From the NCBI GenBank assembly GCA_009914755.4, contig CP086569.2, forward strand, positions 60,896,001 to 60,960,000: DNA of 64,000 bases, written 5' to 3'. Of this stretch, positions 1-64,000 are shown one piece after another. Origin of the DNA: the human T2T-CHM13v2.0 reference genome, Homo sapiens. A program made the translations under genes and the position numbers. Each line of letters begins with the position of its first letter. The first letter of the stretch is position 1. The notes beneath the pieces were generated by a model, which saw only the letters and a list, made by a program, of their open reading frames with translations, ran no database searches and had not been told where the DNA came from.

Positions 1-3000
1 TCATTGACTGGAAAGGCTGGGTGTCGAAAGGAATTGACTCCAATGGAATGGAATCGAATGGAGTGGAAGTGAATAGAATCGAACTACATCGAATGGAATG
101 GAATTGATAGGAACGGAATGGAAAGGAATGCAATGATTTGGCACGGAATGGAATCGAATGGCATCGAATGGAATGGAATGGAATGCAATGGAATGGAACG
201 TATTAGAATGTAATGAACTTTAATGGAATGTACTCGAATGGATTCGACTGGAATGGAATGTTCTGGAAGTGAATGGACTCCAATGGAATGGATTCAAAAG
301 GAATGGAATCGTACGGAATGGAATCTAATGGAATGGAATTAAATGGAAATGAATCAAATTGAATAGCATGGAATTGAATTGAATGGAATCGAATGCAATG
401 GTATCTAATGAAACGGAAAGGAAAGGAATGGAATGGAATGGAATGGGCTGGAATGGAAAGGAATCGAAACGAATGGAATGGAATCGAACTGAAGAGACTG
501 GAATGGAATGCACTGGAATGGAAGGGAGTGTAATGGAAGGTTCTCGAAAAAAATGGAATCGAATGGAATGGAATTGAATGGAACGGAATAGAGTCGAATG
601 GAATTGAATGGAATGGAATGGACTAGAGTGAAATGGAATCGAACCACAAGGAATGGACAGGAATAGAATGGTCTCGAATTGAATGGAATCGTATGGAATG
701 GCATCAAACGGAATGGAATGGACAGCCACGGAATGGAATGCACTCGAATGCAATGGAGTCGAAACTAATGGACTGGAATAGAATGGACTCGACTGGTACG
801 GACTCCAATGGAATGGAATCGAATGGAAGGGAATCGAACGGAATGGACTCGAAGGGAAAAGACTGCAATGGAAAGGTCTCGAATGGAATGGAAATAAATG
901 GAATGGAATGGAATCGAATGAAATGGAGTCAAAAGGAATGGAATTGAATGGCAAGAAATCGAATGTAATGGAATCGCAAGGAATTGATGTGAACGGAACG
1001 GAATGGAATGGAATCCAAAGGAATGGAATAGAATGGAATGGAATCGAATGGAAAGGACTCGAATGGAAATCACTCGAATAGAATGCAATTTAATAAAATA
1101 GGACCAAATGAAATGGAATGGAATGGAAAGGAATCGAAACGAAAGGAATGGAGACAGATGGAATGGAATGGAGCAGAGAGCAATGGTATAGAATGGAATG
1201 GAATCATCTGGAATGGAATTGAATGGAATGGAATAATATGAAATGGAATGGAATGGAATGGAATGGAATGCCCTTGAATTAAATGGACTGGAATGGAATG
1301 GACTCGAACAGAGTGGAATGGAAAGTGTTGAGATAGAATGGAATGGACTCGTTTGGAATGGTCTAGTATGCAATGCAATCGACTGGCAGGGAATCAAAAG
1401 GAATGTAATCGAATGGATTGGACTGGAATGCAATGGACTCGAATAGATTGCAAACGGAATGCAAAGGAATGGAATGGAATAGTATGGAATGGAATGGAAA
1501 GGAATGGAGTGGAATAGACTAGAGTGGAATGGAATGGACTGGAAAGCAATGGACTGGAATGGAACTTTCTTGAATGGACTGGAATCAAACGGAATGGAAT
1601 GCAATGCAATCAAATGGCATGGAATAAAATAGAATGAAAGAGAATGAAATGGAATTGAATCGAATGGAATCGAATGGATTGGAAAGGAATAGAATGGAAT
1701 GGAATGGAATTGACTCAAATGGAATGGACTAGAATGGAATGGATTCGAATGGAAGGCAAAGGAATGGAATCTATTGGAATGGACTGTAATGGAATGGAAT
1801 GGAAGGGATTGGAATGGACTCGAATGGAATGGACTGCAATAGAAAGGATTCGAATGGAATGAAAAAGAATTGAATGGAATAGAACAGAATGGAATCAAAT
1901 CGAATGAAATGGAATGGAATAGAAAGGAATGGAATGAAATGGAATGGAAAGGATTCGAATGGAATGCAATCGAATGGAATGGAGTCGAACGGAATGGAAT
2001 AAAATGGAAGAAAACTGGCAAGAAATGGAATCGAAATGAATGGAGTGTTATGGAACGGACTCAAAAGGAATTGAATGTAATAGAATGGAGTGGAGTGGAC
2101 TCGAATATAATGGACTGGAATGGAATGAAATCACATGGAATGGGAACGAATGGAATGGAATGGAAAGGAATGGAATCGAATGGAAAGGAATCGAATGGAA
2201 GGGAATGAAATTGAATCAACAGGAATTGTAGGGAATAGAATAGACGGTAATGGAATGGACTCGAATAGAATGGACACGAATGCTCAAATTGAATGGACTC
2301 GAATGGAATGGAAACGAAAGGAATGTCATCGAATGGAATTGAATCGATTGGAATCAAATCGCATAGAATGGAGTGGAATCAAATGGAATTGAATCGAAAG
2401 GAAAGGAAGCGAATGGACTGAAATGAAATGGAATGGAATTGAATGGAAAGTAATGCAATGGAATAGAATGGAACGAAATTTCACGGAATGGAATCAAACT
2501 GAATGGAATCAAATCAATGGAATCAAATCAAATGGAATGGAAAGGAATTGAATGGAGTAGATTGGATTGGATGGGATTGGAATGAAATGTACTGGAAAGG
2601 ACTCGAATTTCATGAAACGGAATGGAATGAATTGGAACGGAATGGACTCGAATGGAATGGAATGTCATGGAATGGCATCAAATGGAATGGCATCAAATGG
2701 AATGGAATCGAATGCAATGGAATGCTATGGAATGGAATGGAATGCATTGGAATGGAATGTCCTCTAATGGAATGGATTCGAGTGGAATGGAATCGAATAT
2801 AATGGAGTCGAATGAAATGGAATTGAAAGGAATGGGATCGAATACAATGGAATATACTGGAATGTAATGTAATGAACTCGAATGTAATTGACTGGAATGG
2901 AATGTACATGAATGGAATGTAATCGAATGGAAAGTAATCCAATGGAATACAATCTAATGCAATAAAATCGACTCAGATAGAGTAGAATGTAATGGAATGG

Positions 3001-3564
3001 AGTGCAGTGCAATGGAATGGAATGGAATGGAATGCAATGGAATGGAATGGAATGGAATGGAATGGAATGGGATGGAATGGGATGGAATGTTATGGAATGG
3101 ATAGTAATGGACTGGAGTGAAATGGACTGGAAAGGAATGGACTCAAATTAAAAGGGCTCGAAAGGAATGCAGTCAAATGGAATGGTCTGGAATGGAATGA
3201 ACACGAAAGTAATGCAATCCAATAGAATGGAATCGAATGGCATGGAATATAAAGAAATGGAATCGAAGAGAATGGAAACAAATGGAATGGAATTGAATGG
3301 AATGGAATTGAATGGAATGGGAACGAATGGAGTGAAATTGTATGCAGTAGAAGGGAATAGAATGGAATGCAAGCGAAAGGAAAGGAATGGATTGGAATGG
3401 AATGGAATTCATTGGAATGGAAGGGAATGTAGTGTAATGGACAGGCCTGCAATAAAGTGGAATGCTACGGTCTCGAATGGAATAAAAATGTATGGAATGG
3501 AATGCAATGAAACGGAATCGAATGTCATAGAATGTAATGGAATGCAAAAAAATGGAATCCAAAA
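1..3564. repeat. HOR unit 1 (3564 bp), haplotype A
   Basis: Anchor 'tcattgactgg' at 1 and 3565. Carries the 'ggaccaaatgaaatgg' variant (~1091). The 418-aa artefactual reverse ORF (765..2021) is intact. Shares private variants with unit 4 ('gaactacatcgaatgg', 'gaatggaacgtattag', 209-aa ORF 325..954). Confidence 0.85.
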
Positions 3565-6500
3565 TCATTGACTGGAAAGGCTGGGTGTCGAAAGGAATTG
3601 ACTCCAATGGAATGGAATCGAATGGAATGGAAGTGATAGAATCGAACTAAATCGAATGGAATGGAATTGATAGGAACGGAATGGAAAGGAATGCAATGAT
3701 TTGGCATGGAATGGAATCAAATGGCATCGAATGGAATGGTATGGAATGCAACGGAATGGAATGTATTAGAATGTAATGAACTTTAATGGAATGTACTCGA
3801 ATGGATTCGACTGGAATGGAATGTTCTGGAAGTGAATGGACTCCAATGGAATGGATTCAAAAGGAATGGAATCGTTCGGAATGGAATCTAATGGAATGGA
3901 ATTAAATGGAAATGAATCAAATTGAATAGCACGGAATTGAATTGAATGGAATGGAATGCAATGGAATCTAATGAAACGGAAAGGAAAGGAATGGAATGGA
4001 ATGGAATGGGCTGGAATGGAAAGGAATCGAAACGAATGGAATGGAATCGAACTGAAGAGACTGGAATGGAATGCACTGGAATGGAAGGGAGTGTAATGGA
4101 AGGTTCTCGAAAAAAATGGAATCGAATGGAATGGAATTGAATGGAACGGAATAGAGTCGAATGGAATTGAATGGAATGGAATGGACTAGAGTGAAATGGA
4201 ATCGAACCACAAGGAATGGACAGGAATAGAATGGTCTCGAATTGAATGGAATCGTATGGAATGGCATCAAACGGAATGGAATGGACAGCCACGGAATGGA
4301 ATGCACTCGAATGCAATGGAGTCGAAACTAATGGACTGGAATAGAATGGACTCGACTGGTACGGACTCCAATGGAATGGAATCGAATGGAAGGGAATCGA
4401 ACGGAATGGACTCGAAGGGAAAAGACTGCAATGGAAAGGTCTCGAATGGAATGGAAATTAATGGAATGGAATGGAATCGAATGAAATGGAGTCAAAAGGA
4501 ATGGAATCGAATGGCAAGAAATCGAATGTAATGGAATCGCAAGGAATTGATGTGAACGGAACGGAATGGAATGGAATCCAAAGGAATGGAATAGAATGGA
4601 ATGGAATCGAATGGAAAGGACTCGAATGGAAATCACTCGAATAGAATGCAATTTAATAAAATAGGACCAAATGAAATGGAATGGAATGGAAAGGAATCGA
4701 AACGAAAGGAATGGAGACAGATGGAATGGAATGGAACAGAGAGCAATGGTATAGAATGGAATGGAATCATCTGGAATGGAATTGAATGGAATGGAATAAT
4801 ATGAAATGGAATGGAATGGAATGGAATGGAATGCCCTTGAATTAAATGGACTGGAATGGAATGGACTCGAACAGAGTGGAATGGAAAGTGTTGAGATAGA
4901 ATGGAATGGACTCGTTTGGAATGGTCTAGTATGCAATGCAATCGACTGGCAGGGAATCAAAAGGAATGTAATGGAATGGATTGGACTGGAATGCAATGGA
5001 CTCGAATAGATTGCAAACGGAATGCAAAGGAATGGAATGGAATAGTATGGAATGGAATGGAAAGGAATGGAGTGGAATAGACTAGAGTGGAATGGAATGG
5101 ACTGGAAAGCAATGGACTGGAATGGAACTTTCTTGAATGGACTGGAATCAAACGGAAAGGAATGCAATGCAATCAAATGGCATGGAATAAAATAGAATGA
5201 AAGAGAATCAAATGGAATTGAATCGAATGGAATCGAATGGATTGGAAAGGAATAGAATGGAATGGAATGGAATTGACTCAAATGGAATGGACTAGAATGG
5301 AATGGATTCGAATGGAAGGCAAAGGAATGGAATCTATTGGAATGGACTGTAATGGAATGGAATGGAAGGGATTGGAATGGACTCGAATGGAATGGACTGC
5401 AATAGAAAGGATTCGAATGGAATGAAAAAGAATTGAATGGAATAGAACAGAATGGAATCAAATCGAATGAAATGGAATGGAATAGAAAGGAATGGAATGA
5501 AATGGAATGGAAAGGATTCGAATGGAATGCAATCGAATGGAATGGAGTCGAACGGAATGGAATAAAATGGAAGAAAACTGGCAAGAAATGGAATCGAAAT
5601 GAATGGAGTGTTATGGAACGGACTCAAAAGGAATTGAATGTAATAGAATGGAGTGGAGTGGACTCGAATATAATGGACTGGAATGGAATGAAATCACATG
5701 GAATGGGAACGAATGGAATGGAATGGAAAGGAATGGAATCGAATGGAAAGGAATCGAATGGAAGGGAATGAAATTGAATCAACAGGAATTGTAGGGAATA
5801 GAATAGACGGTAATGGAATGGACTCGAATAGAATGGACACGAATGCTCAAATTGAATGGACTCGAATGGAATGGAAACGAAAGGAATGTCATCGAATGGA
5901 ATTGAATCGATTGGAATCAAATCGCATAGAATGGAGTGGAATCAAATGGAATTGAATCGAAAGGAAAGGAAGCGAATGGACTGAAATGAAATGGAATGGA
6001 ATTGAATGGAAAGTAATGCAATGGAATAGAATGGAACGAAATTTCACGGAATGGAATCAAACTGAATGGAATCAAATCAATGGAATCAAATCAAATGGAA
6101 TGGAAAGGAATTGAATGGAGTAGATTGGATTGGATGGGATTGGAATGAAATGTACTGGAAAGGACTCGAATTTCATGAAACGGAATGGAATGAATTGGAA
6201 CGGAATGGACTCGAATGGAATGGAATGTCATGGAATGGCATCAAATGGAATGGCATCAAATGGAATGGAATCGAATGCAATGGAATGCTATGGAATGGAA
6301 TGGAATGCATTGGAATGGAATGTCCTCTAATGGAATGGATTCGAGTGGAATGGAATCGAATATAATGGAGTCGAATGAAATGGAATTGAAAGGAATGGGA
6401 TCGAATACAATGGAATATACTGGAATGTAATGTAATGAACTCGAATGTAATTGACTGGAATGGAATGTACATGAATGGAATGTAATCGAATGGAAAGTAA

Positions 6501-7127
6501 TCCAATGGAATACAATCTAATGCAATAAAATCGACTCAGATAGAGTAGAATGTAATGGAATGGAGTGCAGTGCAATGGAATGGAATGGAATGGAATGCAA
6601 TGGAATGGAATGGAATGGAATGGAATGGAATGGGATGGAATGGGATGGAATGTTATGGAATGGATAGTAATGGACTGGAGTGAAATGGACTGGAAAGGAA
6701 TGGACTCAAATTAAAAGGGCTCGAAAGGAATGCAGTCAAATGGAATGGTCTGGAATGGAATGAACACGAAAGTAATGCAATCCAATAGAATGGAATCGAA
6801 TGGCATGGAATATAAAGAAATGGAATCGAAGAGAATGGAAACAAATGGAATGGAATTGAATGGAATGGAATTGAATGGAATGGGAACGAATGGAGTGAAA
6901 TTGTATGCAGTAGAAGGGAATAGAATGGAATGCAAGCGAAAGGAAAGGAATGGATTGGAATGGAATGGAATTCATTGGAATGGAAGGGAATGTAGTGTAA
7001 TGGACAGGCCTGCAATAAAGTGGAATGCTACGGTCTCGAATGGAATAAAAATGTATGGAATGGAATGCAATGAAACGGAATCGAATGTCATAGAATGTAA
7101 TGGAATGCAAAAAAATGGAATCCAAAA
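3565..7127. repeat. HOR unit 2 (3563 bp), haplotype A
   Basis: Anchor at 3565 and 7128. 'gaactaaatcgaatgg' variant shared with unit 3. GGCC at 7007-7010 in the 'ggcctgcaat' context, as in unit 1. Confidence 0.85.
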
Positions 7128-10100
7128 TCATTGACTGGAAAGGCTGGGTGTCGAAAGGAATTGACTCCAATGGAATGGAATCGAATGGAATGGAAGTGAT
7201 AGAATCGAACTAAATCGAATGGAATGGAATTGATAGGAACGGAATGGAAAGGAATGCAATGATTTGGCATGGAATGGAATCAAATGGCATCGAATGGAAT
7301 GGTATGGAATGCAACGGAATGGAATGTATTAGAATGTAATGAACTTTAATGGAATGTACTCGAATGGATTCGACTGGAATGGAATGTTCTGGAAGTGAAT
7401 GGACTCCAATGGAATGGATTCAAAAGGAATGGAATCGTTCGGAATGGAATCTAATGGAATGGAATTAAATGGAAATGAATCAAATTGAATAGCACGGAAT
7501 TGAATTGAATGGAATGGAATGCAATGGAATCTAATGAAACGGAAAGGAAAGGAATGGAATGGAATGGAATGGGCTGGAATGGAAAGGAATCGAAACGAAT
7601 GGAATGGAATCGAACTGAAGAGACTGGAATGGAATGCACTGGAATGGAAGGGAGTGTAATGGAAGGTTCTCGAAAAAAATGGAATCGAATGGAATGGAAT
7701 TGAATGGAACGGAATAGAGTCGAATGGAATTGAATGGAATGGAATGGACTAGAGTGAAATGGAATCGAACCACAAGGAATGGACAGGAATAGAATGGTCT
7801 CGAATTGAATGGAATCGTATGGAATGGCATCAAACGGAATGGAATGGACAGCCACGGAATGGAATGCACTCGAATGCAATGGAGTCGAAACTAATGGACT
7901 GGAATAGAATGGACTCGACTGGTACGGACTCCAATGGAATGGAATCGAATGGAAGGGAATCGAACGGAATGGACTCGAAGGGAAAAGACTGCAATGGAAA
8001 GGTCTCGAATGGAATGGAAATTAATGGAATGGAATGGAATCGAATGAAATGGAGTCAAAAGGAATGGAATCGAATGGCAAGAAATCGAATGTAATGGAAT
8101 CGCAAGGAATTGATGTGAACGGAACGGAATGGAATGGAATCCAAAGGAATGGAATAGAATGGAATGGAATCGAATGGAAAGGACTCGAATGGAAATCACT
8201 CGAATAGAATGCAATTTAATAAAATAGGACCAAATGAAATGGAATGGAATGGAAAGGAATCGAAACGAAAGGAATGGAGACAGATGGAATGGAATGGAAC
8301 AGAGAGCAATGGTATAGAATGGAATGGAATCATCTGGAATGGAATTGAATGGAATGGAATAATATGAAATGGAATGGAATGGAATGGAATGGAATGCCCT
8401 TGAATTAAATGGACTGGAATGGAATGGACTCGAACAGAGTGGAATGGAAAGTGTTGAGATAGAATGGAATGGACTCGTTTGGAATGGTCTAGTATGCAAT
8501 GCAATCGACTGGCAGGGAATCAAAAGGAATGTAATGGAATGGATTGGACTGGAATGCAATGGACTCGAATAGATTGCAAACGGAATGCAAAGGAATGGAA
8601 TGGAATAGTATGGAATGGAATGGAAAGGAATGGAGTGGAATAGACTAGAGTGGAATGGAATGGACTGGAAAGCAATGGACTGGAATGGAACTTTCTTGAA
8701 TGGACTGGAATCAAACGGAAAGGAATGCAATGCAATCAAATGGCATGGAATAAAATAGAATGAAAGAGAATCAAATGGAATTGAATCGAATGGAATCGAA
8801 TGGATTGGAAAGGAATAGAATGGAATGGAATGGAATTGACTCAAATGGAATGGACTAGAATGGAATGGATTCGAATGGAAGGCAAAGGAATGGAATCTAT
8901 TGGAATGGACTGTAATGGAATGGAATGGAAGGGATTGGAATGGACTCGAATGGAATGGACTGCAATAGAAAGGATTCGAATGGAATGAAAAAGAATTGAA
9001 TGGAATAGAACAGAATGGAATCAAATCGAATGAAATGGAATGGAATAGAAAGGAATGGAATGAAATGGAATGGAAAGGATTCGAATGGAATGCAATCGAA
9101 TGGAATGGAGTCGAACGGAATGGAATAAAATGGAAGAAAACTGGCAAGAAATGGAATCGAAATGAATGGAGTGTTATGGAACGGACTCAAAAGGAATTGA
9201 ATGTAATAGAATGGAGTGGAGTGGACTCGAATATAATGGACTGGAATGGAATGAAATCACATGGAATGGGAACGAATGGAATGGAATGGAAAGGAATGGA
9301 ATCGAATGGAAAGGAATCGAATGGAAGGGAATGAAATTGAATCAACAGGAATGGTAGGGAATAGAATAGACGGTAATGGAATGGACTCGAATAGAATGGA
9401 CACGAATGCTCAAATTGAATGGACTCGAATGGAATGGAAACGAAAGGAATGTCATCGAATGGAATTGAATCGATTGGAATGAAATCGCATAGAATGGAGT
9501 GGAATCAAATGGAATTGAATCGAAAGGAAAGGAAGCGAATGGACTGAAATGAAATGGAATGGAATTGAATGGAAAGTAATGCAATGGAATAGAATGGAAC
9601 GAAATTTCACGGAATGGAATCAAACTGAATGGAATCAAGTCAATGGAATCAAATCAAATGGAATGGAAAGGAATTGAATGGAGTAGATTGGATTGGATGG
9701 GATTGGAATGAAATGTACTGGAAAGGACTCGAATTTCATGAAACGGAATGGAATGAATTGGAACGGAATGGACTCGAATGGAATGGAATGTCATGGAATG
9801 GCATCAAATGGAATGGCATCAAATGGAATGGAATCGAATGCAATGGAATGCTATGGAATGGAATGGAATGCATTGGAATGGAATGTCCTCTAATGGAATG
9901 GATTCGAGTGGAATGGAATCGAATATAATGGAGTCGAATGAAATGGAATTGAAAGGAATGGGATCGAATACAATGGAATATACTGGAATGTAATGTAATG
10001 AACTCGAATGTAATTGACTGGAATGGAATGTACATGAATGGAATGTAATCGAATGGAAAGTAATCCAATGGAATACAATCTAATGCAATAAAATCGACTC

Positions 10101-10690
10101 AGATAGAGTAGAATGTAATGGAATGGAGTGCAGTGCAATGCAATGGAATGGAATGGAATGCAATGGAATGGAATGGAATGGAATGGAATGGAATGGAATG
10201 GAATGGGATGGAATGGTATGGAATGGATAGTAATGGACTGGAGTGAAATGGACTGGAAAGGAATGGACTCAAATTGAAAGGGCTCGAAAGGAATGGAGTC
10301 AAATGGAATGGTCTGGAATGGAATGAACACGAAAGTAATGCAATCCAATAGAATGGAATCGAATGGCATGGAATATAAAGAAATGGAATCGAAGAGAATG
10401 GAAACAAATGGAATGGAATTGAATGGAATGGAATTGAATGGAATGGGAACGAATGGAGTGAAATTGTATGCAGTAGAAGGGAATAGAATGGAATGCAAGC
10501 GAAAGGAAAGGAATGGATTGGAATGGAATGGAATTCATTGGAATGGAAGGGAATGTAGTGTAATGGACAGGCCTGGAATAAAGTGGAATGCTACGGTCTC
10601 GAATGGAATAAAAATGTATGGAATGGAATGCAATGAAACGGAATCGAATGTCATAGAATGTAATGGAATGCAAAAAAATGGAATCCAAAA
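7128..10690. repeat. HOR unit 3 (3563 bp), haplotype A
   Basis: Anchor at 7128 and 10691. From this unit onward the HaeIII context is 'ggcctggaat' (10570) instead of 'ggcctgcaat'. Confidence 0.85.
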
Positions 10691-13600: not shown

Positions 13601-14249
13601 AATGGAAAGTAATCCAATGGAATAGAATCTAATGCAATAAAACCGACTCAGATAGAGTAGAATGTAATGGAATGGAGTGCAGTGCAATGGAAGGGAATGG
13701 AATTGAATGCAATGGAATGGAATGGAATGGAATGGAATGGAATGGAATGGAATGGGATGGAATGGGATGGAATGGTATGGAATGGATAGTAATGGACTGG
13801 AGGGAAATGGACTGGAAAGGAATGGACTCAAATTGAAAGGGCTCGAAAAGAAGGGAGTCAAATGGAATAGTCTGGAATAGAATGAACACGAATGTAATGC
13901 AATCCAATAGAATGGAATCGAATGGCATGGAATATAAAGAAATGGAATCGAAGAGAATGGAAACAAATGGAATGGAATTGAATGGAATGGAATTGAATGG
14001 AATGGGAACGAATGGAGTGAAATTGTATGCAGTAGAAGGGAATAGAATGGAATGCAAGCGAAAGGAAAGGAATGGATTGGAATGGAATGGAATTCATTGG
14101 AATGGAAGGGAATGTAGTGTAATGGACAGGCCTGGAACAAAGTGGAATGCTACGGTCTCGAATGGAATAAAAATGTATGGAATGGAATGCAATGAAACGG
14201 AATCGAATGTCATAGAATGTAATGGAATGCAAAAAAATGGAATCCAAAA
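10691..14249. repeat. HOR unit 4 (3559 bp), haplotype A, with a 15-bp deletion
   Basis: Anchor at 10691 and 14250. Closely resembles unit 1 (209-aa ORF 11015..11644; 'ctacatcgaatgg'). One 'aatggcatcaaatgg'-type 15-bp unit is missing near 13371-13395 (ORF 13193..13477 is 94 aa instead of 99 aa). Confidence 0.85.
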
Positions 14250-52900: not shown

Positions 52901-53463
52901 TGGAATGGAGTGCAGTGCAATGGAATGGAATGGAATGGAATGCAATGGAATGGAATGGAATGGAATGGAATGGAATGGGATGGAATGGTGTGGAATGGAT
53001 AGTAATGGACTGGAGTGAAATGGACTGGAAAGGAATGGACTCAAATTGAAAGGGCTCGAAAGGAATGGAGTCAAATGGAATGGTCTGGAATGGAATGAAC
53101 ACGAATGTAATGCAATCCAATAGAATGGAATCGAATGGCGTGGAATAAAAAGAAATGGAATCGAAGAGAATGGAAACAAATGGAATGGAATTGAATGGAA
53201 TGGAATTGAATGGAATGGGAACGAATGGAGTGAAATTGTATGCAGTAGAAGGGAATAGAATGGAATGCAAGCGAAAGGAAAGGAATGGATTGGAATGGAA
53301 TGGAATTCATTGGAATGGAAGGGAATGTAGTGTAATGGACAGGCCTGGAATAAAGTGGAATGCTACGGTCTCGAATGGAATAAAAATGTATGGAATGGAA
53401 TGCAATGAAACGGAATCGAATGTCATAGAATGTAATGGAATGCAAAAAAATGGAATCCAAAAT
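49909..53463. repeat. HOR unit 15 (3555 bp)
   Basis: Anchor at 49909 and 53464. Shares the 'ggaatggactgg' (MDWNG) variant with unit 5 (~50345). Shorter pure (GGAAT)n tract ~52921-52990. Confidence 0.85.
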
Positions 53464-56400
53464 CATTGACTGGAAAGGCTGGGTGTCGAAAGGAATTGAC
53501 TCCAATGGAATGGAATCGAATGGAATGGAAGTGAATAGAATCGAACTAAATCGAATGGAATGGAATTGATAGGAACGGAATGGAAAGGAATGCAATGATT
53601 TGGCATGGAATGGAATCGAATGGCATCGAATGGAATGGAATGGAATGCAATGGAATGGAATGTATTAGAATGTAATGAACTTTAATGGAATGTACTCGAA
53701 TGGATTCGACTGGAATGGAATGTTCTGGAAGTGAATGGACTCCAATGGAATGGATTCAAAAGGAATGGAATCGTACGGAATGGAATCTAATGGAATGGAA
53801 TTAAATGGAAATGAATCAAATTGAATAGCACGGAATTGAATTGAATGGAATGGAATGCAATGGAATCTAATGAAACGGAAAGGAAAGGAATGGAATGGAA
53901 TGGAATGGGCTGGAATGGAAAGGAATCGAAACGAATGGAATGGAATCGAACTGAAGAGACTGGAATGGAATGCACTGGAATGGAAGGGAGTGTAATGGAA
54001 GGTTCTCGAAAAAAATGGAATCGAATGGAATGGAATTGAATGGAACGGAATAGAGTCGAATGGAATTGAATGGAATGGAATGGACTAGAGTGAAATGGAA
54101 TCGAACCACAAGGAATGGACAGGAATAGAATGGTCTCGAATTGAATGGAATCGTATGGAATGGCATCAAACGGAATGGAATGGACAGCCACGGAATGGAA
54201 TGCACTCGAATGCAATGGAGTCGAAACTAATGGACTGGAATAGAATGGACTCGACTGGTACGGACTCCAATGGAATGGAATCGAATGGAAGGGAATCGAA
54301 CGGAATGGACTCGAAGGGAAAAGACTGCAATGGAAAGGTCTCGAATGGAATGGAAATTAATGGAATGGAATGGAATCGAATGAAATGGAGTCAAAAGGAA
54401 TGGAATCGAATGGCAAGAAATCGAATGTAATGGAATCGCAAGGAATTGATGTGAACGGAACGGAATGGAATGGAATCCAAAGGAATGGAATAGAATGGAA
54501 TGGAATCGAATGGAAAGGACTCGAATGGAAATCACTCGAATAGAATGCAATTTAATAAAATAGGATCAAATGTAATGGAATGGAATGGAAAGGAATCGAA
54601 ACGAAAGGAATGGAGACAGATGGAATGGAATGGAACAGAGAGCAATGGTATAGAATGGAATGGAATCATCTGGAATGGAATTGAATGGAATGGAATAATA
54701 TGAAATGGAATGGAATGGAATGGAATGGAATGCCCTTGAATTAAATGGACTGGAATGGAATGGACTCGAACAGAGTGGAATGGAAAGTGTTGAGATAGAA
54801 TGGAATGGACTCCTTTGGAATGGTGTAGTATGCAATGCAATCGACTGGCAGGGAATCAAAAGGAATGTAATGGAATGGATTGGACTGGAATGCAATGGAC
54901 TCGAATAGATTGGAAACGGAATGCAAAGGAATGGAATGGAATAGTATGGAATGGAATGGAAAGGAATGGAGTGGAATAGACTAGAGTGGAATGGAATGGA
55001 CTGGAAAGCAATGGACTGGAATGGAACTTTCTTGAATGGACTGGAATCAAACGGAATGGAATGCAATGCAATCAAATGGCATGGAATAAAATAGAATGAA
55101 AGAGAATCAAATGGAATTGAATCGAATGGAATCGAATGGATTGGAAAGGAATAGAATGGAATGGAATGGAATTGACTCAAATGGAATGGACTAGAATGGA
55201 ATGGATTCGAATGGAAGGCAAAGGAATGGAATCTATTGGAATGGACTGTAATGGAATGGAATGGAAGGGATTGGAATGGACTCGAATGGAATGGACTGCA
55301 ATAGAAAGGATTCGAATGGAATGAAAAAGAATTGAATGGAATAGAACAGAATGGAATCAAATCGAATGAAATGGAATGGAATAGAAAGGAATGGAATGAA
55401 ATGGAATGGAAAGGATTCGAATGGAATGCAATCGAATGGAATGGAATCGAACGGAATGGAATAAAATGGAAGAAAACTGGCAAGAAATGGAATCGAAATG
55501 AATGGAGTGTTATGGAACGGACTCAAAAGGAATTGAATGTAATAGAATGGAGTGGAGTGGACTCGAATATAATGGACTGGAATGGAATGAAATCACATGG
55601 AATGGGAACGAATGGAATGGAATGGAAAGGAATGGAATCGAATGGAAAGGAATCGAATGGAAGGGAATGAAATTGAATCAACAGGAATGGAAGGGAATAG
55701 AATAGACGGTAATGGAATGGACTCGAATAGAATGGACACGAATGCTCAAATTGAATGGACTCGAATGGAATGGAAACGAAAGGAATGTCATCGAATGGAA
55801 TTGAATCGATTGGAATGAAATCGCATAGAATGGAGTGGAATCAAATGGAATTGAATCGAAAGGAAAGGAAGCGAATGGACTGAAATGAAATGGAATGGAA
55901 TTGAATGGAAAGTAATGCAATGGAATAGAATGGAACGAAATTTCACGGAATGGAATCAAACTGAATGGAATCAAATCAATGGAATCCAATCAAATGGAAT
56001 GGAGTAGATTGGATTGGATGGGATTGGAATGAAATGTACTGGAAAGGACTCGAATTTCATGAAACGGAATGGAATGAATTGGAACGGAATGGACTCGAAT
56101 GGAATGGAATGTCATAGAATGGCATCAAATGGAATGGCATCAAATGGAATGGAATAGAATGCAATGGAATGCTATGGAATGGAATGGAATGCATTGGAAT
56201 GGAATGTCCTCTAATGGAATGGATTCGAGTGGAATGGAATCGAATATAATGGAGTCGAATGAAATGGAATTGAAAGGAATGGGATCGAATACAATGGAAT
56301 ATACTGGAATGTAATGTAATGAACTCGAATGTAATTGACTGGAATGGAATGTACATGAATGGAATGTAATCGAATGGAAAGTAATCCAATGGAATAGAAT

Positions 56401-57006
56401 CTAATGCAATAAAATCGACTCAGATAGAGTAGAATGTAATGGAATGGAGTGCAGTGCAATGGAATGGAATGGAATGGAATGCAATGGAATGGAATGGAAT
56501 GGAATGGAATGGAATGGAATGGGATGGAATGGTATGGAATGGATAGTAATGGACTGGAGTGAAATGGACTGGAAAGGAATGGACTCAAATTGAAAGGGCT
56601 CGAAAGGAATGGAGTCAAATGGAATGGTCTGGAATGGAATGAACACGAATGTAATGCAATCCAATAGAATGGAATCGAATGGCATGGAATAAAAAGAAAT
56701 GGAATCGAAGAGAATGGAAACAAATGGAATGGAATTGAATGGAATGGAATTGAATGGAATGGGAACGAATGGAGTGAAATTGTATGCAGTAGAAGGGAAT
56801 AGAATGGAATGCAAGCGAAAGGAAAGGAATGGATTGGAATGGAATGGAATTCATTGGAATGGAAGGGAATGTAGTGTAATGGACAGGCCTGGAATAAAGT
56901 GGAATGCTACGGTCTCGAATGGAATAAAAATGTATGGAATGGAATGCAATGAAACGGAATCGAATGTCATAGAATGTAATGGAATGCAAAAAAATGGAAT
57001 CCAAAA
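53464..57006. repeat. HOR unit 16 (3543 bp, shortest) with a 15-bp deletion
   Basis: Anchor at 53464 and 57007. Same 'aatccaatcaaatggaatggagtag' 15-bp deletion as units 10 and 11, at ~55981-56010. Confidence 0.85.
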
Positions 57007-60000
57007 TCATTGACTGGAAAGGCTGGGTGTCGAAAGGAATTGACTCCAATGGAATGGAATCGAATGGAATGGAAGTGAATAGAATCGAACTAAATCGAAT
57101 GGAATGGAATTGATAGGAACGGAATGGAAAGGAATGCAATGATTTGGCATGGAATGGAATCGAATGGCATCGAATGGAATGGTATGGAATGCAATGGAAT
57201 GGAATGTATTAGAATGTAATGAACTTTAATGGAATGTACTCGAATGGATTCGACTGGAATGGAATGTTCTGGAAGTGAATGGACTCCAATGGAATGGATT
57301 CAAAAGGAATGGAATCGTACGGAATGGAATCTAATGGAATGGAATTAAATGGAAATGAATCAAATTGAATAGCACGGAATTGAATTGAATGGAATGGAAT
57401 GCAATGGAATCTAATGAAACGGAAAGGAAAGGAATGGAATGGAATGGAATGGGCTGGAATGGAAAGGAATCGAAACGAATGGAATGGAATCGAACTGAAG
57501 AGACTGGAATGGAATGCACTGGAATGGAAGGGAGTGTAATGGAAGGTTCTCGAAAAAAATGGAATCGAATGGAATGGAATTGAATGGAACGGAATAGAGT
57601 CGAATGGAATTGAATGGAATGGAATGGACTAGAGTGAAATGGAATCGAACCACAAGGAATGGACAGGAATAGAATGGTCTCGAATTGAATGGAATCGTAT
57701 GGAATGGCATCAAACGGAATGGAATGGACAGCCACGGAATGGAATGCACTCGAATGCAATGGAGTCGAAACTAATGGACTGGAATAGAATGGACTCGACT
57801 GGTACGGACTCCAATGGAATGGAATCGAATGGAAGGGAATCGAACGGAATGGACTCGAAGGGAAAAGACTGCAATGGAAAGGTCTCGAATGGAATGGAAA
57901 TTAATGGAATGGAATGGAATCGAATGAAATGGAGTCAAAAGGAATGGAATCGAATGGCAAGAAATCGAATGTAATGGAATCGCAAGGAATTGATGTGAAC
58001 GGAACGGAATGGAATGGAATCCAAAGGAATGGAATAGAATGGAATGGAATCGAATGGAAAGGACTCGAATGGAAATCACTCGAATAGAATGCAATTTAAT
58101 AAAATAGGATCAAATGTAATGGAATGGAATGGAAAGGAATCGAAACGAAAGGAATGGAGACAGATGGAATGGAATGGAACAGAGAGCAATGGTATAGAAT
58201 GGAATGGAATCATCTGGAATGGAATTGAATGGAATGGAATAATATGAAATGGAATGGAATGGAATGGAATGGAATGCCCTTGAATTAAATGGACTGGAAT
58301 GGAATGGACTCGAACAGAGTGGAATGGAAAGTGTTGAGATAGAATGGAATGGACTCCTTTGGAATAGTGTAGTATGCAATGCAATCGACTGGCAGGGAAT
58401 CAAAAGGAATGTAATGGAATGGATTGGACTGGAATGCAATGGACTCGAATAGATTGGAAACGGAATGCAAAGGAATGGAATGGAATAGTATGGAATGGAA
58501 TGGAAAGGAATGGAGTGGAATAGACTAGAGTGGAATGGAATGGACTGGAAAGCAATGGACTGGAATGGAACTTTCTTGAATGGACTGGAATCAAACGGAA
58601 TGGAATGCAATGCAATCAAATGGCATGGAATAAAATAGAATGAAAGAGAATCAAATGGAATTGAATCGAATGGAATCGAATGGATTGGAAAGGAATAGAA
58701 TGGAATGGAATGGAATTGACTCAAATGGAATGGACTAGAATGGAATGGATTCGAATGGAAGGCAAAGGAATGGAATCTATTGGAATGGACTGTAATGGAA
58801 TGGAATGGAAGGGATTGGAATGGACTCGAATCGAATGGACTGCAATAGAAAGGATTCGAATGGAATGAAAAAGAATTGAATGGAATAGAACAGAATGGAA
58901 TCAAATCGAATGAAATGGAATGGAATAGAAAGGAATGGAATGAAATGGAATGGAAAGGATTCGAATGGAATGCAATCGAATGGAATGGAATCGAACGGAA
59001 TGGAATAAAATGGAAGAAAACTGGCAAGAAATGGAATCGAAATGAATGGAGTGTTATGGAACGGACTCAAAAGGAATTGAATGTAATAGAATGGAGTGGA
59101 GTGGACTCGAATATAATGGACTGGAATGGAATGAAATCACATGGAATGGGAACGAATGGAATGGAATGGAAAGGAATGGAATCGAATGGAAAGGAATCGA
59201 ATGGAAGGGAATGAAATTGAATCAACAGGAATGGAAGGGAATAGAATAGACGGTAATGGAATGGACTCGAATAGAATGGACACGAATGCTCAAATTGAAT
59301 GGACTCGAATGGAATGGAAACGAAAGGAATGTCATCGAATGGAATTGAATCGATTGGAATGAAATCGCATAGAATGGAGTGGAATCAAATGGAATTGAAT
59401 TGAAAGGAAAGGAAGCGAATGGACTGAAATGAAATGGAATGGAATTGAATGGAAAGTAATGCAATGGAATAGAATGGAACGAAATTTCACGGAATGGAAT
59501 CAAACTGAATGGAATCAAATCAATGGAATCAAATCAAATGGAATGGAAAGGAATTGAATGGAGTAGATTGGATTGGATGGGATTGGAATGAAATGTACTG
59601 GAAAGGACTCGAATTTCATGAAACGGAATGGAATGAATTGGAACGGAATGGACTCGAATGGAATGGAATGTCATGGAATGGCATCAAATGGAATGGCATC
59701 AAATGGAATGGAATCGAATGCAATGGAATGCTATGGAATGGAATGGAATGCATTGGAATGGAATGTCCTCTAATGGAATGGATTCGAGTGGAATGGAATC
59801 GAATATAATGGAGTCGAATGAAATGGAATTGAAAGGAATGGGATCGAATACAATGGAATATACTGGAATGTAATGTAATGAACTCGAATGTAATTGACTG
59901 GAATGGAATGTACATGAATGGAATGTAATCGAATGGAAAGTAATCCAATGGAATAGAATCTAATGCAATAAAATCGACTCAGATAGAGTAGAATGTAATG

Positions 60001-60580
60001 GAATGGAGTACAGTGCAATGGAATGGAATGGAATGGAATGCAATGGAATGGAATGGAATGGAATGGAATGGAATGGAATGGAATGGAATGGAATGGGATG
60101 GAATGGTATGGAATGGATAGTAATGGACTGGAGTGAAATGGACTGGAAAGGAATGGACTCAAATTGAAAGGGCTCGAAAGGAATGGAGTCAAATGGAATG
60201 GTCTGGAATGGAATGAACACGAAAGTAATGCAATCCAATAGAATGGAATCGAATGGCATGGAATATAAAGAAATGGAATCGAAGAGAATGGAAACAAATG
60301 GAATGGAATTGAATGGAATGGAATTGAATGGAATGGGAACGAATGGAGTGAAATTGTATGCAGTACAAGGGAATAGAATGGAATGCAAGCGAAAGGAAAG
60401 GAATGGATTGGAATGGAATGGAATTCATTGGAATGGAAGGGAATGTAGTGTAATGGACAGGCCTGGAATAAAGTGGAATGCTACGGTCTCGAATGGAATA
60501 AAAATGTATGGAATGGAATGCAATGAAACGGAATCGAATGTCATAGAATGTAATGGAATGCAAAAAAATGGAATCCAAAA
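57007..60580. repeat. HOR unit 17 (3574 bp)
   Basis: Anchor at 57007 and 60581. Long pure (GGAAT)n tract at ~60031-60100. Confidence 0.85.
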
Positions 60581-63500
60581 TCATTGACTGGAAAGGCTGG
60601 GTGTCGAAAGGAATTGACTCCAATGGAATGGAATCGAATGGAATGGAAGTGAATAGAATCGAACTAAATCGAATGGAATGGAATTGATAGGAACGGAATG
60701 GAAAGGAATGCAATGATTTGGCATGGAATGGAATCGAATGGCATCGAATGGAATGGAATGGAATGCAATGGAATGGAATGTATTAGAATGTAATGAACTT
60801 TAATGGAATGTACTCGAATGGATTCGACTGGAATGGAATGTTCTGGAAGTGAATGGGCTCCAATGGAATGGATTCAAAAGGAATGGAATCGTACGGAATG
60901 GAATCTAATGGAATGGAATTAAATGGAAATGAATCAAATTGAATAGCACGGAATTGAATTGAATGGAATGGAATGCAATGGAATCTAATGAAACGGAAAG
61001 GAATGGAATGGAATGGAATGGAATGGAATGGGCTGGAATGGAAAGGAATCGAAACGAATGGAATGGAATCGAACTGAAGAGACTGGAATGGAATGCACTG
61101 GAATGGAAGGGAGTGTAATGGAAGGTTCTCGAAAGAAATGGAATCGAATGGAATTGAATTGAATGGAACGGAATAGAGTCGAATGGAATTGAATGGAATG
61201 GAGTGGACTAGAGTGAAATGGAATCGAACCACAAGGAATGGACAGGAATAGAATGGTCTCGAATTGAATGGAATCATATGGAATGGCATCAAACGGAATG
61301 GAATGGACAGCCACGGAATGGAATGCACTCGAATGCAATGGAGTCGAAACTAATGGACTGGAATAGAATGGACTCGACTGGTACGGACTCCAATGGAATG
61401 GAATCGAATGGAAGGGAATCGAACGTAATGGACTCGAAGGGAAAAGACTGCAATGGAAAGGTCTCGAATGGAATGGAAATTAATGGAATGGAATGGAATC
61501 GAATGAAATGGAGTCAAAAGGAATGGAATCGAATGGCAAGAAATCGAATGTAATGGAATCGCAAGGAATTGATGTGAACGGAACGGAATGGAATGGAATC
61601 CAAAGGAATGGAATAGAATGGAATGGAATCGAATGGAAAGGACTCGAATGGAAATCACTCGAATAGAATGCAATTTAATAAAATAGGATCAAATGTAATG
61701 GAATGGAATGGAAAGGAATCGAAACGAAAGGAATGGAGACAGATGGAATGGAATGGAACAGAGAGCAATGGTATAGAATGGAATGGAATCATCTGGAATG
61801 GAATTGAATGGAATGGAATAATATGAAATGGAATGGAATGGAATGGAATGGAATGCCCTTGATTTAAGTGGACTGGAATGGAATGGACTCGAACAGAGTG
61901 GAATGGAAAGTGTTGAGATAGAATGGAATGGACTCCTTTGGAATGGTGTAGTATGCAATGCAATCGACTGGCAGGGAATGAAAAGGAATGTAATGGAATG
62001 GATTGGACTGGAATGCAATGGACTCGAATAGATTGGAAACGGAATGCAAAGGAATGGAATGGAATAGTATAGAATGGAATGGAAAGGAATGGAGTGGAAT
62101 AGACTAGAGTGGAATGGAATGGACTGGAAAGCAATGGACTGGAATGGAACTATCTTGAATGGACTGGAATCAAACGGAATGGAATGCAATGCAATCAAAT
62201 GGCATGGAATAAAATAGAATGAAAGAGAATCAAATGGAATTGAATCGAATGGAATCGAATGGATTGGAAAGGAATAGAATGGAATGGAATGGAATTGACT
62301 CAAATGGAATGGGCTAGAATGGAATGGATTCGAATGGAAGGCAAAGGAATGGAATCTATTGGAATGGACTGTAATGGAATGGAATGGAAGGGATTGGAAT
62401 GGACTCGAATGGAATGGACTGCAATAGAAAGGATTCGAATGGAATGAAAAAGAATTGAATGGAATAGAACAGAATGGAATCAAATCGAATGAAATGGAAT
62501 GGAATAGAAAGGAATGGAATGAAATGGAATGGAAAGGATTCGAATGGAATGCAATCGAATGGAATGGAATCGAACGGAATGGAATAAAATGGAAGAAAAC
62601 TGGCAAGAAATGGAATCGAAATGAATGGAGTGTTATGGAACGGACTCAAAAGGAATTGAATGTAATAGAATGGAGTGGAGTGGACTCGAATATAATGGAC
62701 TGGAATGGAATGAAATCACATGGAATGGGAACGAATGGAATGGAATGGAAAGGAATGGAATCGAATGGAAAGGAATCGAATGGAAGGGAATGAAATTGAA
62801 TCAACAGGAATGGAAGGGAATAGAATAGACGGTAATGGAATGGACTCGAATAGAATGGACACGAATGCTCAAATTGAATGGACTCGAATGGAATGGAAAC
62901 GAAAGGAATGTCATCGAATGGAATTGAATCGATTGGAATGAAATCGCATAGAATGGAGTGGAATCAAATGGAATTGAATCGAAAGGAAAGGAAGCGAATG
63001 GACTGAAATGAAATGGAATGGAATTGAATGGAAAGTAATGCAATGGAATAGAATGGAACGAAATTTCACGGAATGGAATCAAACTGAATGGAATCAAATC
63101 AATGGAATCAAATCAAATGGAATGGAAAGGAATTGAATGGAGTAGATTGGATTGGATGGGATTGGAATGAAATGTACTGGAAAGGACTCGAATTTCATGA
63201 AACGGAATGGAATGAATTGGAACGGAATGGACTCGAATGGAATGGAATGTCATGGAATGGCATCAAATGGAATGGCATCAAATGGAATGGAATCGAATGC
63301 AATGGAATGCTATGGAATGGAATGGAATGCATTGGAATGGAATGTCCTCTAATGGAATGGATTCGAGTGGAATGGAATCGAATATAATGGAGTCGAATGA
63401 AATGGAATTGAAAGGAATGGGATCGAATACAATGGAATATACTGGAATGTAATGTAATGAACTCGAATGTAATTGACTGGAATGGAATGTACATGAATGG

Positions 63501-63630
63501 AATGTAATCGAATGGAAAGTAATCCAATGGAATAGAATCTAATGCAATAAAATCGACTCAGATAGAGTAGAATGTAATGGAATGGAGTGCAGTGCAATGG
63601 AATGGAATGGAATGGAATGCAATAGAATGG
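60581..63630. repeat. HOR unit 18, truncated at HOR offset ~3040
   Basis: Anchor at 60581. Collinear with the other units until ~63620. After that the sequence no longer follows offsets 3050-3564; it jumps to HOR offset ~1250. Confidence 0.8.
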
Positions 63631-63660
63631 AATTTAATGGAATGGAATGGAATGGAATGG
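63601..63660. other. Recombination or deletion junction inside the array, joining HOR offset ~3040 to HOR offset ~1250
   Basis: '...agtgcagtgcaatggaatggaatggaatggaatgcaat|agaatggaatttaatggaatggaatggaatggaatggaatgcccttgaattaaatggactgg'. The left flank is the offset ~3000-3040 region. The right flank is the offset ~1240-1290 region. Both flanks contain pure (GGAAT)n tracts. Confidence 0.75.
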
Positions 63661-64000
63661 AATGCCCTTGAATTAAATGGACTGGAATGGAATGGACTCG
63701 AACAGAGTGGAATGGAAAGTGTTGAGATAGAATGGAATGGACTCCTTTGGAATGGTCTAGTATGCAATGCAATCGACTGGCAGGGAATCAAAAGGAATGT
63801 AATCGAATGGATTGGACTGGAATGCAATGGACAGGAATAGATTGGAAACGGAATGCAAAGGAATGGAATGGAATAGTATGGAATGGAATGGAAAGGAATG
63901 GAGTGGAATAGACTAGAGTGGAATGGAATGGACTGAAAAGCAATGGACTGGAATGGAACTTTCTTGAATGGACTGGAATCAAACGGAATGGAATGCAATG
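63631..64000. repeat. Partial HOR unit that starts mid-unit (corresponds to HOR offsets ~1250-1620)
   Basis: 63651-64000 ('gaatgcccttgaattaaatggactggaatgg...ctttcttgaatggactggaatcaaacgg') matches 1258-1610 of unit 1. It does not match the expected offset 3050+ sequence. Confidence 0.8.

What the first reader, a model, noticed from the sequence alone, without database searches (positions are those of the whole stretch)
1..64000. Window is a human HSat3 (GGAAT)n array with a 3.56 kb higher-order repeat, DYZ1-like
There are seventeen complete units plus one truncated unit. The first unit is exactly 3564 bp. Each unit has one GGCC (HaeIII) site at fixed offset 3444 (unit 1 at 3444, unit 2 at 7007, unit 3 at 10570...) and one GAATTC at offset ~3405. 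This is the classical signature of the male-specific 3.56 kb DYZ1 family of Yq12: a HaeIII/EcoRI 3.4–3.56 kb ladder built from TTCCA pentamers. If so, the window comes from Y-chromosome heterochromatin, which is polymorphic in size between men. The alternative is an autosomal HSat3 array with a coincidentally similar HOR length.
Basis: partly seen in the sequence, partly recalled or inferred. Interest (0 to 1): 0.5.

Follow-up and report, generated by a model that had tools for sequence, protein, structure and literature searches.

The report
Human Y-chromosome DYZ1 satellite array

Summary
The window holds 17 complete repeat units of 3,544–3,609 bp and part of an 18th. Each complete unit has one HaeIII site, and each has one EcoRI site except unit 12, which has an extra one at 41424. 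Complete units are 98.2–99.7% identical to one another.

A cloned, published DYZ1 unit (3,564 bp) aligns end to end with every unit on the minus strand at 98.0–99.3% identity. Out-of-register alignments and two unrelated HSat3 contigs reach only about 70–73%. The published marker 24-mer for HSat3A6, the Y subfamily, occurs 34 times. The markers for the 13 other HSat2/3 subfamilies occur 0 times. GC content, CpG density, restriction-site counts and TTCCA counts all match published DYZ1 values. Chromosomal position could not be tested directly because no human assembly was available.

One correction: unit 18 is not simply truncated. At about 63,620–63,665 it jumps from unit offset ~3065 back to ~1266 inside a (GGAAT)n tract, which points to an out-of-register exchange.

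Variation among units fits pentamer slippage, unequal exchange and local homogenisation. This is a known satellite and of low interest.

The parts
1..60580 (-). Seventeen complete DYZ1 (HSat3A6) higher-order repeat units of 3544-3609 bp. The published TTCCA orientation is on the minus strand, so the + strand is the GGAAT, purine-rich strand.
   Evidence: Unit starts and pairwise identity of 98.2-99.7%. Full-length identity of 98.0-99.3% to the published DYZ1 clone on the minus strand. HSat3A6 marker 24-mer present about twice per unit.
60581..63620 (-). Canonical part of unit 18, covering unit offsets 1 to about 3040.
   Evidence: 13 substitutions and one 5-bp insertion against the 17-unit consensus over this stretch.
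63620..63665 (.). Out-of-register join inside (GGAAT)n tracts. The sequence passes from unit offset ~3040-3065 to unit offset ~1245-1266, a backward jump of about 1.8 kb.
   Evidence: The semi-global alignment to the consensus breaks down after 63,624. The sequence on both sides of the join is a perfect (GGAAT)n run.
63660..64000 (-). Second copy of unit offsets 1266-1606, lying after the join and cut off by the end of the window.
   Evidence: 329-337 of 341 positions identical to offsets 1266-1606 in 16 of the 17 complete units (318 in unit 12), against about 70% at the expected offset.
3444..3447 (.). HaeIII (GGCC) site that defines the classical 3.56 kb fragment. It recurs at 7007, 10570, 14129, 17683, 21247, 24806, 28365, 31934, 35488, 39032, 42600, 46179, 49788, 53342, 56886 and 60460.
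   Evidence: In silico HaeIII fragments are 3544-3609 bp.
3405..3410 (.). EcoRI (GAATTC) site, one per unit, 39 bp upstream of the HaeIII site.
41424..41429 (.). Extra EcoRI site, found only in unit 12, created by a G>T substitution (CGAATGCTC to CGAATTCTC).
3039..3068 (+). Main perfect (GGAAT)n tract of the unit, with 4-11 perfect copies depending on the unit. It is the main hotspot for length variation and one side of the join in unit 18.
   Evidence: Indel positions and tract copy numbers per unit.

Best explanation
The window lies inside one DYZ1 array (HSat3 subfamily A6) of the human Y-chromosome long-arm heterochromatin (Yq12). It reads as the reverse complement of the published TTCCA orientation. 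It is non-coding constitutive heterochromatin: degenerate GGAAT pentamers with a weak 15-bp sub-period, organised into a 3.56 kb higher-order unit repeated head to tail.

How the array is made and kept uniform:
1. Slippage or small unequal exchanges add and remove whole pentamers, or 15-bp triplets of pentamers, mostly in the perfect (GGAAT)n tracts.
2. Unequal sister-chromatid exchange and intra-array gene conversion duplicate, delete and homogenise whole units, so neighbouring units are the most alike.
3. Occasionally the exchange pairs two different (GGAAT)n tracts within the unit and creates a variant-length unit. The join at about 63.62-63.66 kb looks like such an event.
4. Point mutations accumulate, faster at methylated CpGs.

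What it does: most likely nothing that depends on its exact sequence. It packages as hypermethylated heterochromatin and accounts for much of the Y-length polymorphism between men. It also offers a very dense set of TEAD-core (GGAATG) sites. A testis transcript has been reported, but its function is unclear.

Shown here: family membership by sequence, the pattern of variation, and the join. Inferred: the Yq12 location, the exchange mechanisms, and any chromatin or transcription-factor role.
For: Family membership:
- The published DYZ1 clone (3564 bp) aligns full length with every unit at 98.0-99.3% identity. Out-of-register alignments give about 70%.
- Seven of eight published DYZ1 primers map about once per unit.
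- The HSat3A6 marker 24-mer has 34 exact hits. The 13 other HSat2/3 subfamily markers have 0 (markers from PMC4022460).
- GC is 38.8% with one CpG per 35.4 bp. Hallast et al. give 38% and 1 per 35 bp.
- HaeIII, EcoRI, TaqI, HinfI and other site counts, and 225-237 TTCCA per unit, match the published clone and PMC3925983 Tables 1 and 3.
- Independent DYZ1 copies, found as human contamination in six 'bacterial' assemblies, are 98.2-99.9% identical to the window consensus.
- Non-DYZ1 HSat3 contigs are about 70-73% identical.

Y-specificity, from the literature: the T2T-Y preprint calls DYZ1 'a Y-specific subfamily of HSat3' in ~3.6 kb nested repeats, with most units over 98% identical. Altemose 2014 describes a male-specific 3.6 kb unit.

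Mechanism:
- Almost all indels are 5, 10, 15 or 30 bp and cluster at a few tracts.
- The main tract has 4-11 perfect copies depending on the unit.
- Autocorrelation at lag 15 exceeds that at lags 5 and 10, and TRF reports period 15.
- Adjacent units differ by 33.1 substitutions, against 39.7 +/- 1.6 for shuffled order, p about 2e-4.
- Blocks of shared variants occur in neighbouring units 13-14, 1-4 and 5-7.
- The join lies between two (GGAAT)n tracts.
- CpG positions are 2.4 times more often variable than other positions.
- The literature reports unequal exchange, sister-chromatid exchange and gene conversion in Yq12.

Other features: GGAATG occurs 46 times per kb on the + strand, and TEAD binding to HSat3 has been reported. 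There are no Rfam families. The long ORFs are the pentamer read in frame.
Against: - No human assembly could be searched, so the chromosomal position rests on the literature's statement that this subfamily is Y-specific.
- Altemose 2014 lists HSat3A6 as 'Y, 7', which implies a minor non-Y localisation.
- Yq12 heterochromatin can sit on autosomes in carriers of Y;autosome translocations.
- The window contains no DYZ2 block or other Yq12 landmark.
- The exchange mechanisms are inferred from patterns, not observed.
- Some shared variants link non-adjacent units (10, 11 and 16; 5 and 15), so simple local duplication is not the whole story.
- The join could be an assembly error. It was not found in any other sequence.
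Confidence: 0.93

Rival explanations
1. The sequence is DYZ1-derived but does not lie in Yq12 proper. Candidates are the DYZ1-related arrays of the DYZ18 subregion at the Yq11/Yq12 border, the minor chromosome 7 localisation of HSat3A6, or a Yq12 block carried on an acrocentric short arm through a Y;autosome translocation.
For: Hallast et al. describe a 2.7 kb array in the DYZ18 subregion in which 77% of the unit is 97% identical to DYZ1. Altemose 2014 lists HSat3A6 as 'Y, 7'. Y;autosome translocations of the heterochromatin occur in healthy carriers. The window has no flanking landmark.
Against: The units are full-length 3.54-3.61 kb, not 2.7 or 3.1 kb. They are 98-99.3% identical to a DYZ1 clone over the whole unit. 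Yq12 holds about 20 Mb of exactly this repeat, so the prior for any other site is small. A translocated block would still be DYZ1 in origin.
Confidence: 0.04
2. The window is an autosomal HSat3 array (9q12, 15p, acrocentric or other) whose higher-order repeat length happens to be about 3.56 kb.
For: All HSat3 arrays share the GGAAT pentamer, and several have kilobase-scale repeat units.
Against: There are no exact hits to the marker 24-mers of HSat3A1-A5, HSat3B1-B5 or HSat2A1, A2 and B, against 34 hits for HSat3A6. Identity to a DYZ1 clone is 98-99.3% in register across 3564 bp. Real non-DYZ1 HSat3 contigs are only about 70-73% identical.
Confidence: 0.01
3. The window is a non-human great-ape Y or autosomal (AATGG)n satellite related to DYZ1.
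For: (AATGG)n repeats are male-biased and present on the Y chromosomes of other great apes.
Against: Identity to clones from human males is 98-99.3%. Identity to human contaminant copies in unrelated assemblies is 98.2-99.9%. Satellite turnover between apes is described as high. No ape sequence was available for a direct test.
Confidence: 0.01
4. The out-of-register join at 63.62-63.66 kb is an assembly or read-chimera artefact and not a real variant unit. This rival concerns the join only.
For: The join lies in a perfect low-complexity tract, where mis-joins are easiest. The window ends 341 bp later. The join sequence was not found elsewhere.
Against: The post-join sequence is about 98.5% identical to the other units, not 100% identical to any one of them. 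A real, independently diverged copy would look like this. The collections searched hold almost no human DNA, so absence from them says little.
Confidence: 0.25

Closest known systems
DYZ1 / HSat3A6, the 3.56 kb HaeIII repeat of human Yq12 (Cooke 1976; Nakahori 1986; Altemose 2014; T2T-Y)
   Same: Unit length, with a 3564-bp first unit. One HaeIII and one EcoRI site per unit. TTCCA pentamer make-up. 98-99.3% full-length identity to a published clone. The HSat3A6 marker 24-mer. GC content and CpG density. Inter-unit identity above 98%.
   Different: Nothing of substance. The window's HaeIII fragments are mostly 3554-3564 bp, whereas Hallast et al. found 3569 bp to be the commonest length. The last unit carries an out-of-register join.
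The 2.7 kb and 3.1 kb arrays and DYZ18 at the Yq11/Yq12 border (Hallast et al. 2023)
   Same: Y-linked, pentamer-derived and partly DYZ1-derived. 77% of the 2.7 kb unit is 97% identical to DYZ1.
   Different: Unit lengths of 2.7 and 3.1 kb, with a DYZ18-derived part. The window has full 3.56 kb units at higher identity to DYZ1.
Other Y-linked HSat3: DYZ17 and HSat3A3 near the centromere
   Same: GGAAT-based satellite on the Y chromosome.
   Different: A different subfamily. The HSat3A3 marker 24-mer has 0 hits even with 2 mismatches allowed.
Autosomal HSat3 arrays: HSat3B5 on 9q12, HSat3A5 on chromosome 15, HSat3A4 on the acrocentrics
   Same: The same ancestral pentamer, dense TEAD-core GGAATG motifs and heterochromatic packaging.
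   Different: Their marker 24-mers are absent. Two real non-DYZ1 HSat3 contigs are only about 70-73% identical and carry CAACCCGAGT-type motifs that the window lacks.

Membership tests
DYZ1 / HSat3A6 | Tandem higher-order unit of about 3.56 kb released by HaeIII, with one GGCC site per unit | tested here: met
   17 GGCC sites spaced 3544-3609 bp apart. In silico HaeIII fragments are 3544-3609 bp.
DYZ1 / HSat3A6 | High full-length sequence identity to a cloned DYZ1 unit | tested here: met
   98.0-99.3% identity over positions 1-3564 of clone MZT1a (PMC3925983, Additional file 1) for every complete unit, against about 70% out of register.
DYZ1 / HSat3A6 | Presence of the HSat3A6-specific 24-mer and absence of the markers of the other HSat2/3 subfamilies (Altemose 2014, Table 1) | tested here: met
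   34 exact hits for the HSat3A6 marker. 0 exact hits for each of the 13 others.
DYZ1 / HSat3A6 | Built from TTCCA pentamers and their derivatives, with roughly 184-235 exact TTCCA per unit in published clones | tested here: met
   225-237 TTCCA per HaeIII unit, against 235 in the published clone (Table 1 of PMC3925983).
DYZ1 / HSat3A6 | Published DYZ1 PCR primers anneal once per unit in the expected order | tested here: met
   Primers A-G of PMC3925983 Table 5 match with 0-2 mismatches in 13-18 units at consistent offsets. Primer H, printed without one base of the GGCC site, did not match within 2 mismatches.
DYZ1 / HSat3A6 | GC about 38% and about one CpG per 35 bp (Hallast et al.) | tested here: met
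   GC 38.8% and one CpG per 35.4 bp.
DYZ1 / HSat3A6 | Male-specific, located in Yq12 | not testable with these tools
   No human genome assembly or sex-stratified read set was available. The location is inferred from the literature.
DYZ1 / HSat3A6 | Arrays alternate with DYZ2 (HSat1B, about 2.4 kb, AT-rich and Alu-containing) blocks | tested here: inconclusive
   There is no DYZ2 or Alu sequence in the window, and every base aligns to the DYZ1 unit. Published DYZ1 arrays are 50 kb to 3.6 Mb long, so a 64 kb window lying wholly inside one array is expected.
Autosomal HSat3 subfamilies (A1, A2, A4, A5, B1-B5) | Presence of the subfamily-specific 24-mer | tested here: not met
   0 exact hits for each marker. 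Near matches appear only when 1-2 mismatches are allowed.
2.7 kb / 3.1 kb DYZ18-region arrays | Unit length of 2.7 or 3.1 kb, including a DYZ18-derived segment | tested here: not met
   All 17 complete units are 3544-3609 bp and align to DYZ1 over their whole length. No DYZ18 consensus was available for a direct comparison.

The most novel reading that the evidence does not exclude
The join at about 63.62-63.66 kb is real and marks the start of a variant DYZ1 higher-order unit. If the sequence beyond the window is canonical, this would be a unit of about 5.36 kb between HaeIII sites, or the seed of a 1.8 kb sub-array. Such a unit, created by exchange between two different (GGAAT)n tracts within the unit, would be a structural variant of Yq12. 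It could serve as a lineage marker and as a direct footprint of out-of-register exchange in a non-recombining chromosome.
Probability: 0.5. Interest if true: 0.2.

Novelty: already known. Interest (0 to 1): 0.1.

Why it matters
The result places the window in the largest heterochromatic block of the human genome. That block varies more than fivefold in length between men and was only recently assembled. Nothing here changes what is known about DYZ1.

The window does illustrate three things at single-base resolution:
- Whole-pentamer and 15-bp indels.
- Local homogenisation of neighbouring units.
- One out-of-register join.

There are also two practical points. The stop-free strand yields spurious ORFs of up to 418 aa. 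The same repeat appears as human contamination in 'bacterial' genome assemblies.

Tried and rejected
- The Y1.1 and Y1.2 primer sequences I recalled from memory were not found in the paper library. They match the window exactly in 14 and 16 units, about 155 bp apart. I count this only as a memory-based lead.
- The original Nakahori 1986 paper is not held.
- The apparent 96% identity of unit 18 was at first a puzzle. It turned out to be aligners forcing their way across the out-of-register join, not a diverged subtype.
- The provenance look-up with the 305-aa artefactual ORF product found nothing on record.
- The search for the join in other data failed twice. A 30-mer hit two metagenome contigs, but both proved to be unrelated HSat3 at about 70-73% identity, so the pattern was not specific enough. 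A 46-mer found nothing in viral contigs.
- No periodicity exists between 45 bp and 3.56 kb within the unit. No lag that is a multiple of 5 exceeds z = 3.
- Rfam gave no match.
- No multi-unit super-repeat was seen. Units 9, 16 and 17 are simply close to the consensus.
- A coding reading of the long minus-strand ORFs was rejected. They translate to degenerate IPFHS repeats.
Full report
**1. The observation**

The + strand is purine-rich: 40% A, 30% G, 21% T and 8% C. GGAAT occurs 4310 times on it and ATTCC 3 times.

GGCC occurs 17 times, at 3444, 7007, 10570... 60460. The spacing is 3544-3609 bp. GAATTC occurs once per unit, 39 bp upstream of each GGCC, plus one extra site at 41424. The extra site comes from a G>T change in unit 12.

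Anchoring on the first 24 bases gives 18 unit starts. That makes 17 complete units of 3544-3609 bp, the first exactly 3564 bp, and a 3420-bp remainder. The 17 complete units are 98.2-99.7% identical pairwise, with a mean of 98.9%. The only numerical nuance is that spacing is not fixed. It varies in steps of about 5 bp.

**2. What it is**

A paper on DYZ1 in monozygotic twins (PMC3925983) prints cloned 3564-bp HaeIII units of DYZ1 in its Additional file 1. It also lists eight DYZ1 primers.

- The MZT1a blood clone aligns over its full length, on the minus strand, with every HaeIII-to-HaeIII unit of the window at 98.0-99.3% identity.
- The same clone aligned out of register gives only about 70%. 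I take that as the background similarity of any pentamer-derived satellite.
- Seven of the eight primers map about once per unit at consistent offsets. Primer H, which as printed lacks one base of the GGCC site, did not match.

Altemose et al. 2014 (PMC4022460) list one diagnostic 24-mer for each of 14 HSat2/3 subfamilies. The HSat3A6 marker (DYZ1, 'Y, 7') is present 34 times, about twice per unit. The other 13 markers have no exact match.

Bulk properties also match:
- GC is 38.8% with one CpG per 35.4 bp. Hallast et al. give 38% and 1 per 35 bp for DYZ1.
- Counts of TaqI, HinfI, TfiI, TspEI and the single-cutter sites match the published clone and tables.
- Each unit has 225-237 TTCCA, against 235 in the clone.

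Two further controls came from public collections.
- A DYZ1 32-mer found six contigs in 'bacterial' genome assemblies. They are 98.2-99.9% identical to the window consensus. Two of them (3637 and 3604 bp) are one collapsed unit plus an assembly overlap. This is the human contamination that the T2T-Y paper describes.
- Two metagenome contigs that matched a short pattern by chance turned out to be other HSat3 types. They are only about 70-73% identical to the consensus.

The window is therefore DYZ1 and not merely DYZ1-like.

**3. Where it is**

The T2T-Y preprint describes DYZ1 as a Y-specific HSat3 subfamily in ~3.6 kb nested repeats. It reports over 20 Mb of DYZ1 in blocks of 80-1600 kb, with most units over 98% identical. 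Hallast et al. give DYZ1 array lengths of 50 kb to 3.6 Mb. A 64 kb window with no DYZ2 sequence is therefore expected inside one array.

I could not align the window to any human assembly, so the Yq12 location is an inference from these statements. Three alternatives remain and cannot be excluded by sequence alone:
- the minor 'chromosome 7' entry for HSat3A6;
- the DYZ1-derived 2.7 kb array near DYZ18;
- Y;autosome translocations of the heterochromatin.

All three have small priors. The 2.7 kb array is also contradicted by the unit length.

**4. Anatomy and variation**

- Within the consensus unit there is no intermediate periodicity. There is a 15-bp sub-period: identity at lag 15 is 0.695, against 0.65 at lags 5, 10 and 20. 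TRF also reports periods of 15, 30 and 45.
- Almost all indels between units are 5, 10, 15 or 30 bp. They recur at a few positions, above all the perfect (GGAAT)n tract at offset ~3039, which has 4-11 perfect copies depending on the unit. The indels outside perfect tracts are mostly 15 bp.
- 220 of 3564 consensus positions vary among the 17 units, and 162 of the variants are singletons. CpG positions are 2.4 times more often variable than other positions. This fits the reported hypermethylation.
- Adjacent units differ by 33.1 substitutions on average, against 39.7 +/- 1.6 when unit order is shuffled (p about 2e-4).
- Shared variants group units 1-4, 5-7 and 13-14. They also link non-adjacent units 10, 11 and 16, and units 5 and 15.

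**5. The end of the window**

Unit 18 follows the consensus up to about offset 3040 and then departs from it. From 63660 to 64000 it matches offsets 1266-1606 at 329-337 of 341 positions in 16 of the 17 complete units (318 in unit 12). At the expected offset the match is only about 70%.

Both sides of the join are perfect (GGAAT)n runs, at offsets ~3039-3078 and ~1245-1269. This is what an exchange between two mis-paired tracts would leave.

If the sequence beyond the window is canonical, the HaeIII fragment that starts at 60462 would be about 5.36 kb. This is my arithmetic from the offsets. I could not find the join elsewhere, so an assembly artefact is not excluded.

**6. How it works**

The pattern fits the standard model for satellite arrays, which the Y-chromosome literature also invokes:
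- pentamer-scale slippage;
- unequal sister-chromatid exchange;
- intra-array gene conversion.

In six father-son transmissions, 49 of 53 de novo Y variants lay in Yq12, and about 17% of the SNV events looked like gene conversion.

There is no evidence of a coding or structured-RNA function. Rfam gives nothing. The ORFs of up to 418 aa on the minus strand translate to degenerate IPFHS repeats, which is the pentamer read in frame.

The + strand carries 46 GGAATG (TEAD-core) sites per kb. A recent preprint reports TEAD binding to HSat3 in general. There are 52 canonical inverted heat-shock-element trimers in the 64 kb.

A testis-specific DYZ1 transcript joined to CDC2L2 has been reported, with unclear function. 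Men with very little Yq12 heterochromatin can be fertile.

My best reading is a largely neutral, self-homogenising heterochromatic array. Any transcription-factor sink or transcript role is unproven.

**7. Verdict**

The object is a textbook satellite and already known, so interest is low.

Noticed in passing
window 63620-64000: The 18th unit is not simply cut off by the window end. Inside a (GGAAT)n tract it jumps from unit offset ~3065 back to ~1266 and continues as a second copy of offsets 1266-1606, about 98.5% identical to the other units. If the rest is canonical this predicts a HaeIII fragment of about 5.36 kb.
   Followed up: partly
window 41424-41429 (unit 12): Extra EcoRI site created by a single G>T change. 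Single units have also lost their Bsp1407I, ClaI or DdeI site (HaeIII units 7, 12 and 10 respectively).
   Followed up: yes
whole window; e.g. unit offsets ~829, 2196, 2559, 2719: The pentamer array has a 15-bp (three-pentamer) sub-period. Autocorrelation at lag 15 exceeds that at lags 5 and 10, and the indels outside perfect tracts are mostly exactly 15 bp.
   Followed up: partly
window minus strand, e.g. 765-2021, 4328-5584, 15353-16270: 49 ORFs of at least 150 aa, up to 418 aa and all on the minus strand, translate to degenerate IPFHS repeats. They arise because the pentamer repeat lacks stop codons, and a gene caller could mistake them for genes.
   Followed up: yes
L001-L006 (BMRF01000076.1 Actinomadura cremea; BMTH01000092.1, BMUF01000112.1 and BMTN01000077.1 Streptomyces spp.; CALPCJ010000057.1 Senimuribacter sp.; CAYVXY010000078.1 Polyangiaceae MAG): Contigs in 'bacterial' genome assemblies are human DYZ1 at 98.2-99.9% identity to the window consensus. 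Two of them (3637 and 3604 bp) are one collapsed unit plus an assembly overlap. This looks like human male DNA contamination, as the T2T-Y paper reported for microbial databases.
   Followed up: partly
unit offsets ~449 and ~1119 in every unit (e.g. window 449 and 1119): The HSat3A6 marker 24-mer of Altemose 2014 occurs at two places 670 bp apart in most units. No wider internal duplication shows up at that lag.
   Followed up: partly
whole window: CpG positions are 2.4 times more often variable among units than other positions (13.5% against 5.7%), as expected for methylated satellite DNA. Units 10, 11 and 16 share a 15-bp deletion although unit 16 is not adjacent to the other two.
   Followed up: partly
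L007 (ERZ772935 contig) and L008 (OAUT01001111.1): Metagenome contigs made of non-DYZ1 HSat3 with CAACCCGAGT-type motifs, presumably human contamination. They are about 70-73% identical to DYZ1.
   Followed up: partly
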